From Escherichia phage 236Ecol005PP: a stretch of DNA of 64,000 nt. The stretch is from the sequence record PP434423.1; one strand, 5' to 3'. Shown here in pieces: positions 38,188 to 41,987 of the stretch (the first letter of the stretch is position 1; every line of letters begins with the position of its first letter). The notes below the pieces were generated by a model. The model had not been told where the DNA came from. It was given only the letters and a program-made list of their open reading frames with translations, and did not search any database. The position numbers were made by a program, and so were the translations under genes.

Positions 38188-38441
38188 CATTATGTTCAGA
38201 TAAGGTCGTTAATCTTATCCCGGAATTATATCCAGCTGCATGTCACCATACAGATCAGACTATATCTCCATCTTGATGAAGCAAGATGTCTATCGTTTCG
38301 AGTCACTTGACCCTACTCCCCAAAGGGATAGTCGTTAGGCATTTAGTTCAAAAGAACATTTAGCACGGGATTGTCTACTAGAGAGGTTCCCCGTTTAGAT
38401 AGATTACAAGTATAAGTCACCTTATACTCAGGCCTCAATTA
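38188..38441 (-). ncRNA. group I self-splicing intron in td, lacking any homing-endonuclease ORF
   Basis: starts TAATTGAGGCCTGAG... and ends ...CTGAACATAATG like the T4 td intron core; exon 1 ORF stops at the intron-initial TAA. Confidence 0.85.
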
Positions 38442-38990
38442 ACCCAAGAAAACATCTACACTTCTTTGGTACCATTGTAAATCAAGATAACCATTACGCA
38501 CATTAAACTGATAGAACATATGACAGGGCGGTAATGCCATTTGATTGATTTCAGCTGGATTCCATGCTGAAACGATTTGACGTCGATCAGTTGGTAATTT
38601 TTTAATACGATCAATAGTTTCAACTAATTGATCCACACCACCGAAATCACGCCATTGTTTACCGTATATAGGACCAAGTTCACCACTATGATATCCTAGG
38701 TCTTTAGCCTGGTTTTCATAGTTATCGTCCCAAATAGTTTTACCTTGAATAAGACTACCATGAGTGCGAAGACGTAAATCATTAACATTGGTAGAACCGG
38801 AAATAAACCATAGAAGCTCAGCAATGCAAGCTTTCCAAGCGAGCTTCTTAGTCGTTACTGCAGGAAAACCTTTAGTTAAATCCCAACGTAATTTAGTACC
38901 GAACAAAGCAATTGTTCCTGTGCCTGTTCGGTCATCGGTTTCATAGCCATTTTCAAAAATGTCTTTAATTAAATCTTGGTATTGTTTCAT
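38442..38990 (-). CDS. td: thymidylate synthase, exon 1
   Basis: N-terminal TS sequence including the catalytic PPCH motif. Confidence 0.9.
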
Positions 38991-39069
38991 TTAGTACCTT
39001 ATATAAATTATAATACATTTTATGAAGCTAAATAATCAATACGGTTTAGCATCAAATTTTCTTTCGATT

Positions 39070-39396
39070 TCAGGAGTGAAATATATTTTCTTTACCACGT
39101 TTGGAAAAGCGACCAATAATATGATAATTATTCTCATCAAACGTGATATTGCCAATATCCATAGCTTTCAACCAAATATCGATATTTCTGTCAAGCTTTA
39201 TATCAAAATTCCAATACGGAGAACTATTACCGAAAATACTGCAAGCGGATTCAGTGAAACAACTGCTATAAATCTTGTCTTTAGGAACTACTAATTGATA
39301 GACGCCTTTAATAAACTGAGGACCCTGCCATTTTGGCTGTTTCGCGTCTTTTTCTAATAGAATAGGATAATAATTAAAGTTCATATTTTCCGCCAT
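39070..39396 (-). CDS. hypothetical protein between frd and td
   Basis: 108-aa ORF on the transcribed strand; no recognisable motif; weak RBS. Confidence 0.45.
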   Translation of the reverse strand: MAENMNFNYYPILLEKDAKQPKWQGPQFIKGVYQLVVPKDKIYSSCFTESACSIFGNSSPYWNFDIKLDRNIDIWLKAMDIGNITFDENNYHIIGRFSKRGKENIFHS

Positions 39397-39404
39397 GCGT
39401 TATT

Positions 39405-39995
<591 letters not shown>

Positions 39996-41078: not shown

Positions 41079-41987
41079 TTAAAGGTCATTCAAAAGGTCA
41101 TCCAGGTCCGTGTCATCAGCACTAGATGAACTGCCAGAGCTTGAGCTCATAAAATCATCTTCAGTTTTTGTTTTGAAGTCATCAACATTGAATGCATCCA
41201 AATCATCAGCAACTTTATCGGCTTTCTTAGCAGCAGTTGCTGCGGCACCACCCATAGCAGCAGTTCCCATAACTTGACTGAACTTAGTGCTCAGTTCTTC
41301 AAACGATTTGAATTTATCTTTAGAAGTCATTTCAGAAAGGTCAACCATTTGTTCGAACAGTTCTTTCTGGAAAGATTCATCATCAATGTTTGGAATCGCA
41401 GATTGATTCAGGAATTTAGATTCGTCGTAGTTACTAAAACCAGAAACTTGTTTAACTTTCAGTACAAAGTTAGCACCTTCCCACGGACAAGTTACATCAA
41501 CCGGAGTTTCACCCATTTCAACATCAACTGCAATCATTGCATTGATTTTATCCCAGATTTTCTTACCGAAACGATATTTAAATACTTTACCTTCATTTTC
41601 TGGAGCAGCTGGGTCTTTTACTACAAGAATGTTAGCCCAGTAAGAAATTTTACGTTTAACAAGACCGTACTCTTTATTGTCAGTATTATACAAATCATTT
41701 TTACTGATGTATTGACATACTGGACAAGAATCGTAATCACCGTGGGTAGATGAACATGTTTCAATATACCATTTACCATTTTTCTTGAAACCGTGATTTA
41801 CAAGAATTGCGAATGGTGCTTGTTCATCATTTTTAGACGGAAGAAAACGAATTACTGCTTGACCGTTACCCGCATTGTCGAGTTTCAGTTTCCACTCGCC
41901 TTTATCTTCAGAAGAAAAACCACCTTTATTTCCAGCCAGTTTAGCCATTTGTGCAGCGAGTTCAGCAGTAGATTTACGTTTAAACAT
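41079..41987 (-). CDS. 32: gp32 single-stranded DNA-binding protein
   Basis: 302-aa ORF with zinc-binding Cys/His cluster and acidic C-terminus. Confidence 0.9.

What the first reader, a model, noticed from the sequence alone, without database searches (positions are those of the whole stretch)
38991..39404. Extra 108-aa ORF between frd and td
As I recall, T4 frd and td overlap in an ATGA junction. Here about 410 bp separate them, containing a 108-aa ORF on the transcribed strand (39070-39396) with no motif I recognise, a weak RBS, and an A/T-rich segment with promoter-like elements before td. This looks like an inserted accessory gene in the nucleotide-metabolism operon.
Basis: partly seen in the sequence, partly recalled or inferred. 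Interest (0 to 1): 0.45.

Follow-up and report, generated by a model that had tools for sequence, protein, structure and literature searches.

The report
T2-type td.1 gene, frameshifted copy
The extra ORF between frd and td is the small gene of unknown function already annotated at this spot in phages T2, T6 and hundreds of relatives (T4 is one of the phages that lack it), and this copy has a one-base frameshift near its end, so the finding is real but ordinary.

Summary
414 bp (38991-39404) separate the frd stop from the td start, and they contain a minus-strand ORF at 39070-39396.

The ORF is not new. It is the ortholog of T2H 'Td.1' (AY262132.2), also called RB32ORF229c in T6 and RB14, and belongs to PHROG 1928. 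362 phage records carry the segment at 80-98% nucleotide identity. Diverged homologs lie directly after frd in Mosigvirus, Jiaodavirus, Kanagawavirus and Gelderlandvirus, often followed by a tandem paralog.

It is a real gene under purifying selection: T2H vs T6 differ at 12 synonymous and 0 non-synonymous codons. The conserved start is ATG 39384 and the normal product is 115 aa.

This window has one extra base in the A-run 39086-39089. It replaces the conserved tail LYFTPEIERKFDAKPY with NIFHS*. None of the 362 records shares it.

The frd-td junction is polymorphic: td.1, an unrelated 68-aa ORF, or nothing (T4). A 12-nt direct repeat, TAAATGAAA(C/T)AA, flanks the T4/T2 difference.

Function remains unknown. 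There is no Pfam, NCBIfam or PDB match. A confident AlphaFold model (pLDDT 91) gives a small OB-like beta-barrel with no significant structural neighbour. My best guess, at low confidence, is a non-enzymatic binding protein.

Low interest; already known.

The parts
39405..39986 (-). frd (dihydrofolate reductase), 193 aa; stop TGA at 39407-39405
   Evidence: 96% nt identity to the T4 frd 3' end
39400..39411 (-). Direct-repeat copy 1, TAAATGAAATAA. It covers the frd stop and a relic-like mini-ORF ATGAAATAA (39408-39400) that repeats the first two td codons.
   Evidence: D2, 11/12 identical, spacing 418
39070..39396 (-). td.1 ortholog as it reads in this window (108 aa from ATG 39396; 104 aa from the conserved start ATG 39384)
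   Evidence: PHROG 1928 E=1.5e-30; 97% nt identity to T2H td.1
39086..39089 (-). Frameshift site. The window reads GAAAATAT where all relatives read GAATTAT (net +1 nt).
   Evidence: None of the 362 records shares it. The exact 104-aa product is known from one phage contig only.
39036..39085 (-). Displaced 3' end of td.1, now out of frame. In the T2 frame it encodes (I)YFTPEIERKFDAKPY plus stop TGA at 39038-39036.
   Evidence: (ORF 39036-39155)
38991..39035 (-). A/T-rich spacer before td. It holds a MotA-box-like GCTTCA (39028-39023), TATAAT (39012-39007) and a td Shine-Dalgarno AAGGT (39000-38996).
   Evidence: About 32 nt of it are absent from the Mosigvirus version. Promoter activity is not tested.
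38982..38993 (-). Direct-repeat copy 2, TAAATGAAACAA, covering the td start
38442..38990 (-). td exon 1
   Evidence: The exon end is placed by analogy with the T4 splice site (the intron begins UAAUUGAGGCC).

Best explanation
Identity and history (well supported). The ORF is this phage's copy of td.1, a 115-aa gene confined to T4-like phages (T2H Td.1, RB32ORF229c, PHROG 1928). The family sits immediately downstream of frd across Tevenvirinae, often with a tandem paralog and a further 68-aa gene before td. In Tequatrovirus the frd-td junction has three alleles: td.1 (T2, T6, RB3 and this phage), the unrelated 68-aa ORF (REP4 type), or neither (T4). The T4 and T2 types differ by the 417-418 bp between two copies of TAAATGAAA(C/T)AA. 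This window's copy has a +1-nt frameshift of its own, or a sequencing error, that removes the last 16 conserved residues.

Mechanism (inferred, about 0.3). Td.1 is a non-enzymatic small OB-like beta-barrel. I expect it to be made from the frd-td-nrd transcription unit. I expect it to bind a ligand (single-stranded nucleic acid or a protein partner) through the loop between strands 1 and 2 (D13, Q16, W19) and the strand 4-5 hairpin (G92-R-F-x-K96-x-G98). It would be a dispensable modulator, not a core metabolic enzyme.
For: Identity:
- 97-98% nt identity to T2, T2H and F13076, with 362 records in all.
- Annotated td.1 in AY262132.2 and RB32ORF229c in T6 and RB14.
- PHROG 1928 at E=1.5e-30.

Real gene:
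- Synonymous codon differences greatly outnumber non-synonymous ones: 12/0, 19/1, 15/1.

Old at this locus:
- Homologs lie directly after frd in Mineola, PEi26, STML-198, Entb_45, AlbertHofmann and two metagenomic contigs.
- Tandem paralogs score 96-97% by hhalign.

Three alleles:
-.

Repeat scar:
-.

Frameshift found only here:
-.

Fold:
- AlphaFold2 with 21 sequences gives pLDDT 91 and pTM 0.83, in the order b1-b2-b3-helix-b4-b5.
- Invariant residues W19, G27, G92, K96 and G98 fall in the b1-b2 loop and the b4-b5 hairpin.
- Every family member carries a net charge of 0 to +5.
- No catalytic family matches.
Against: Mechanism:
- No binding, expression or phenotype data exist, and I found no paper on the gene.
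- Gene order is conserved throughout T4-like genomes, so adjacency to frd is weak evidence for a link to dNTP synthesis.

History:
- The copy of the td start (ATGAAA) left after frd, and the ATGA junction shared by T4 and the Dhakavirus IME08, fit an old insertion into a T4-type junction as well as a deletion in T4.

Frameshift:
- It could be a sequencing error.
Confidence: 0.85

Rival explanations
1. The T2-type arrangement was created by insertion of a td.1 cassette, with its own RBS and promoter-like spacer, into an ancestral T4-type ATGA junction. The insertion duplicated about 9-12 nt of the target. T4 keeps the original state.
For: - The 12-nt direct repeat includes the first six td bases, left behind after frd as ATGAAATAA.
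- T4 and the Dhakavirus IME08 share the same overlapped junction.
- In the T2 type the gene is not translationally coupled. It has a 20-nt linker and a 45-nt spacer, unlike the overlapping versions in other genera.
Against: - The family occupies this slot in at least five genera.
- The same scar is present in a Mosigvirus copy.
- td.1 alleles differ by up to about 20% in nucleotide sequence. Any insertion is therefore ancient and not specific to this phage.
- The segment carries no transposase, integrase, homing endonuclease or terminal inverted repeats.
Confidence: 0.4
2. Td.1 is a counter-defence or host-takeover protein. It would inhibit or decoy a host factor, and it would be kept or lost according to the hosts the phage meets.
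For: - The gene is present or absent among very close phages, and is swapped for an unrelated 68-aa gene.
- Tandem paralog expansion occurs in other genera.
- The family is small, confined to phages and never fused to another domain.
Against: - Sequence is highly conserved within Tequatrovirus (266 of 580 records at 99% aa identity or more), with no sign of diversifying selection.
- No fold match to any solved anti-defence protein in the PDB.
- No literature support.
Confidence: 0.25
3. In this particular phage the gene is dead. The frameshift makes it a young pseudogene, and the locus is on its way to the T4-like empty state.
For: - The +1 nt removes 16 residues, including P105, which is conserved in 81% of the family.
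- T4 and REP4-type phages live without the gene.
Against: - Some distant homologs end only 2-6 residues after the FxP motif. The truncated product keeps strand 5 and, by chance, F103, so it may still fold.
- The shift lies in an A-run and is known from a single deposited genome, so a sequencing error is equally likely.
Confidence: 0.35

Closest known systems
T2H Td.1 (ABI48932.1, AY262132.2), also RB32ORF229c of T6, RB14 and RB32; PHROG 1928
   Same: Same position between frd and td, same strand, same flanking linker and spacer. About 97% nt identity, and identical protein up to residue 100 counted from the conserved start.
   Different: The window copy has a +1-nt frameshift (104/108 aa instead of 115) and a G-to-A change that creates an upstream in-frame ATG at 39396.
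T4 frd/td junction (NC_000866)
   Same: Same frd 3' end and td 5' end. The junction sequence TAAATGAAACAA equals repeat copy 2.
   Different: T4 has no gene here. frd and td overlap by ATGA, and 418 bp of the window have no T4 counterpart.
REP4-type 68-aa ORF at the same junction
   Same: It occupies the same frd-td slot in about 135 Tequatrovirus-like records. It co-occurs with Td.1 in Entb_45 and in metagenomic contig L012.
   Different: Unrelated sequence (hhalign probability 0.1%). It overlaps both neighbours by ATGA/TAATG.
OB-fold nucleic-acid-binding domains (SSB, RPA, S1, cold-shock)
   Same: Small barrel in the order b1-b2-b3-helix-b4-b5. Conserved aromatic and basic residues lie in the b1-b2 loop and the b4-b5 hairpin. 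OB domains dominate the weak structural hits.

Membership tests
Td.1 / RB32ORF229c / PHROG 1928 | Significant sequence match to the family profile | tested here: met
   PHROG 1928 E=1.5e-30 over residues 8-106; own HMM 123 bits
Td.1 / RB32ORF229c / PHROG 1928 | Located directly downstream of frd and upstream of td, on the same strand | tested here: met
Td.1 / RB32ORF229c / PHROG 1928 | Full-length product (about 103-119 aa) with the C-terminal motif IGRFxKxGxxxxFxP | tested here: inconclusive
   The motif is kept up to the F. P105 and the tail are lost to the frameshift.
OB-fold nucleic-acid-binding proteins | Five-stranded closed barrel with a helix between strands 3 and 4, recognisably similar to solved OB folds | tested here: inconclusive
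OB-fold nucleic-acid-binding proteins | Binds ssDNA, RNA or an oligosaccharide | not testable with these tools
   Needs EMSA or pull-down.
Homing endonucleases (as some GenBank records name it) | GIY-YIG, HNH, LAGLIDADG or similar nuclease domain | tested here: not met
   No Pfam or NCBIfam hit for any of 21 family members.
Dihydrofolate reductase (as HMD-9 and Kelasse records name it) | DHFR_1 domain (PF00186) | tested here: not met
   The neighbouring frd does carry PF00186 in relatives.
Transposable or insertion element | Transposase or integrase gene and terminal inverted repeats, with a target-site duplication | tested here: not met
   Only the 12-nt direct repeat is present. There are no terminal inverted repeats at the segment ends and no recombinase.

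The most novel reading that the evidence does not exclude
The Td.1 family, with its tandem paralogs, is a structurally new OB-like class of small proteins linked to frd in T4-like phages. It would have a specific role not yet described, for example tuning the dNTP-synthesis or replication machinery through binding of nucleic acid or protein, or neutralising a host defence. The frd-td junction would then be a small exchange hotspot where phages swap such modules.
Probability: 0.2. Interest if true: 0.45.

Novelty: already known. Interest (0 to 1): 0.2.

Why it matters
It matters little for discovery. The gene has been annotated as a hypothetical protein in T2, T6 and RB phages since the 2000s, and it is the commonest state of this junction (362 records). 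T4, the reference everyone remembers, is one of the genomes without it.

Modest value:
- It corrects misleading GenBank names for this protein: DHFR, homing endonuclease, glucose-1-phosphate adenylyltransferase.
- It flags a frameshift, or a sequencing error, in this genome.
- It documents a three-allele hotspot at the frd-td junction.
- It provides a confident model of a small phage-only barrel with no solved relative, which could be worth a simple knockout and pull-down in T2.

Tried and rejected
**Function searches that found nothing**
- Pfam on the ORF and on 21 family members.
- NCBIfam.
- PDB sequence profile, best E 0.035 and spurious.
- Foldseek against BFVD found only uncharacterised proteins of T4-like phages. 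The afdb50 library was unavailable.
- HMMER over 1.84 billion representatives gave only 21 hits. Nineteen are proteins of 95-116 aa. The other two (321 and 380 aa) are weak repeat matches, and the one with a Pfam hit is an RVT_1 protein.
- The profile word search returned 25 proteins, all 113-119 aa, with no Pfam domain and no fusion.

**Other checks**
- No paralog elsewhere in the window or in the 12 kb of T4 examined.
- The first AlphaFold run, with four sequences, was unusable at pLDDT 47.
- Literature searches for td.1, RB32ORF229c, PHROG 1928, 'frd-td' and the accession numbers gave no functional information.

**Ideas rejected**
- Homing endonuclease, DHFR paralog and transposon: see the membership tests.
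- Programmed frameshift: the shift is seen only in this phage among 362 records, and the A-run has only four bases.
- The antisense 90-aa ORF at 39022-39294 (+): substitutions among relatives are synonymous in the minus-strand frame.
- The exact product could not be located on a contig.

Full report
**1. What is in the sequence**

All genes here are on the minus strand. In order they are gene 32 (41079-41987), three small frd.x ORFs, frd (39405-39986), the ORF in question (39070-39396) and td exon 1 (to 38990). The frd stop is TGA at 39407-39405 and the td start is ATG at 38990-38988. That leaves 414 nt between them. In T4, frd and td overlap by ATGA, and nothing matches window 38994-39399.

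**2. The ORF is already known**

- The 414-bp segment matches 362 phage records at 80-98% identity. These include T2, T2H, RB3, RB5-10, HY01 and AR1.
- In T2H (AY262132.2) the ORF is annotated 'td.1, hypothetical protein'. In T6 and RB14 it is RB32ORF229c.
- It matches PHROG 1928, unknown function, at E=1.5e-30.
- Its cluster in the 15-billion-protein collection has 154 members, all named hypothetical.
- Some GenBank records call it 'putative dihydrofolate reductase', 'putative homing endonuclease' or 'putative glucose-1-phosphate adenylyltransferase'. No Pfam or NCBIfam model supports any of these names.

**3. It is a real gene**

Pairs of orthologs differ almost only at synonymous codons:

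| Pair | Synonymous | Non-synonymous |
|---|---|---|
| T2H vs T6 | 12 | 0 |
| HMD-9 vs T6 | 19 | 1 |
| F13076 vs T6 | 15 | 1 |

The conserved start is the ATG at 39384 (MNFNYYP...). The upstream ATG at 39396 is GTG in T2H, T6 and F13076. In a 62%-identical homolog (contig L012) the frd stop overlaps the MNFNYY start directly.

**4. This copy is frameshifted**

- All relatives read ...GGTAAAGAATTATATTTCAC.... The window reads ...GGTAAAGAAAATATATTTCAC..., a net gain of one base in the A-run 39086-39089.
- The product therefore ends ...KRGKENIFHS* instead of ...KRGKELYFTPEIERKFDAKPY*.
- None of the 362 records shares the change. Every best hit to a 76-mer across the site spans 75 nt.
- RB3 differs from the window at that point only, over 100 nt.
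- The exact 104-aa product occurs once in the protein collection, as WWT49804.1 of Escherichia phage 236Ecol005PP. That is probably the source of this window.
- The out-of-frame tail (39036-39085) is still intact at the DNA level. The change is therefore very recent, or it is a sequencing error.
- The lost part includes P105, conserved in 81% of the family. Several distant homologs stop only a few residues after that point, so loss of function is not certain.

**5. Evolutionary context**

tblastn with T2 Td.1 finds 580 phage records, of which 218 are below 60% identity. Where I looked, the homolog lies immediately after frd, usually overlapping it:

| Phage or contig | Genus |
|---|---|
| Klebsiella phage Mineola | Jiaodavirus |
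| Edwardsiella phage PEi26 | Kanagawavirus |
| Enterobacter phage Entb_45 | Kanagawavirus |
| Salmonella phage STML-198 | Gelderlandvirus |
| Escherichia phage AlbertHofmann | Mosigvirus |
| Two metagenomic contigs (L012, L013) | unassigned |

- In PEi26, STML-198 and L012 the next ORF is a diverged paralog (hhalign 97%, 96% and 96%). L013 and Entb_45 have a 114-aa and a 119-aa ORF in the same position; the L013 ORF scores E 9e-10 against the family HMM.
- In L012 and Entb_45 a third ORF of about 68 aa follows before td.
- The L012 copy of that third ORF is 81% identical to the only gene between frd and td in REP4-type Tequatroviruses. About 135 records carry the REP4-type gene at 90% aa identity or more. 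It is unrelated to Td.1.
- The frd-td junction is therefore a small polymorphic site: td.1 in 362 records, the 68-aa ORF in about 135, and neither in T4 and, by subtraction, roughly 90 others. The Dhakavirus IME08 also has the overlapped junction.

**6. The scar and the direction of change**

- The sequence TAAATGAAA(C/T)AA occurs at both ends of the T4/T2 difference, at 39400-39411 and 38982-38993 (11 of 12 identical, spacing 418).
- After frd it leaves the mini-ORF ATGAAATAA, which repeats the first two td codons.
- Recombination between the two copies would convert a T2-type junction exactly into the T4 junction. An old insertion into a T4-type junction, duplicating the target, would give the same picture.
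- The Mosigvirus copy carries the same scar and linker but lacks about 32 nt of the promoter-like spacer. td.1 alleles differ by up to about 20%. Whichever event happened is old.
- There is no recombinase and there are no terminal inverted repeats.
- I consider the direction undecided. It is about even within Tequatrovirus, while the family is clearly ancient at this locus in the subfamily.

**7. Signals around the gene**

- GGCGGA lies four nt before ATG 39384 and is a weak Shine-Dalgarno (read from the sequence).
- The 45-nt spacer before td is 19% GC.
- It contains TTGATT-18-TATTAT and aGCTTcA-10-TATAAT at 39028-39007. The latter resembles a T4 middle promoter, that is a MotA box plus a -10 element, as I know the consensus.
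- The relaxed pattern occurs 18 times in the window against 9.3 expected, so this is only a lead.
- AAGGT at 39000-38996 gives td a better ribosome-binding site than it has in T4.
- No terminator-like site lies in the interval.

**8. What the protein might do**

- No domain, no solved relative by sequence, and no fusion to any other domain among billions of proteins. The family is confined to T4-like phages.
- AlphaFold2 with a 21-sequence alignment gives pLDDT 91 and pTM 0.83. The elements are strands 6-12, 27-34 and 63-65, helix 69-78, then strands 81-83, 87-97 and 100-105. That is the order of an OB-like barrel.
- The invariant residues Q16, W19, G27, G92, K96 and G98, and the nearly invariant Y29, N80, F94 and F103, cluster in the b1-b2 loop and the b4-b5 hairpin. 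In OB folds, as I know them, this is the usual ligand-binding face.
- Net charge is 0 to +5 in every member, and pI is 8.5 for T2 Td.1.
- BFVD returns only uncharacterised proteins from Pectobacterium, Serratia, Erwinia and Aeromonas phages, several of them from T4-like phages.
- My best guess, at about 0.3, is a non-enzymatic binding module for single-stranded nucleic acid or a protein partner. I expect it to be expressed with the nucleotide-synthesis genes, and it is dispensable, as T4 shows.
- A counter-defence or host-adaptation role (about 0.25) fits the presence/absence pattern and the paralog expansion. It does not fit the strong sequence conservation.

**9. Verdict**

It is wrong in implying something new or recently inserted. 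The feature is an already annotated, widespread hypothetical gene, here with a 3' frameshift seen only in this phage. Interest is low (0.2).

Noticed in passing
window 38188-38441 (-): The td gene carries a group I intron with no homing-endonuclease ORF (Rfam RF00028, 72.7 bits, at 38236-38451). Compared with T4, the 775 bp holding I-TevI are replaced by 12 bp (38346-38357), leaving an intron of about 254 nt. Phage HMD-9 has the same short intron. Many relatives have the full I-TevI version or an intermediate size. Splice sites are placed by analogy with T4 only.
   Followed up: partly
L009 848-1054 (REP4); L012 3670-3879; L016 1573-1779: An unrelated 68-aa ORF (MSNKLKVKDVP...) is the alternative occupant of the frd-td junction in about 135 Tequatrovirus-like records. 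Homologs at about 43% identity occur in phAPEC8-like phages outside the T4 group. Function unknown.
   Followed up: partly
L007 2817-3173; L008 2809-3156; L012 3332-3673; L013 3344-3688; L016 1217-1576: In Kanagawavirus, Gelderlandvirus and two metagenomic T4-like contigs, the Td.1 homolog is followed by an ORF of 113-119 aa. The PEi26, STML-198 and L012 ORFs are diverged tandem paralogs sharing the motifs QKKW, HGxY and GRFxKxG (hhalign 96-97%). The L013 ORF matches the family HMM; the Entb_45 ORF was not tested.
   Followed up: yes
window 39394-39396 (-): A G-to-A change relative to T2H, T6 and F13076 turns GTG into ATG four codons upstream of the conserved td.1 start. This is why the ORF reads 108 aa instead of 104.
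   Followed up: yes
L015 150-210 (Mosigvirus AlbertHofmann): One extra A (AAAAATG instead of AAATG) at the frd end shifts the frame past the usual stop. frd then runs 11 codons further and overlaps the td.1 start. The same record lacks about 32 nt of the promoter-like spacer before td.
   Followed up: partly
GenBank records PV287714 (HMD-9), MW749001, MZ501089, MZ501046, MZ501047, NC_054937, OR125554: Td.1 orthologs are annotated as 'putative dihydrofolate reductase', 'putative homing endonuclease' or 'putative glucose-1-phosphate adenylyltransferase'. No profile search supports these names.
   Followed up: yes
L016 402-916 (Enterobacter phage Entb_45): In this record frd is annotated as two pseudogene fragments just upstream of its Td.1 homolog. 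I did not examine it.
   Followed up: no
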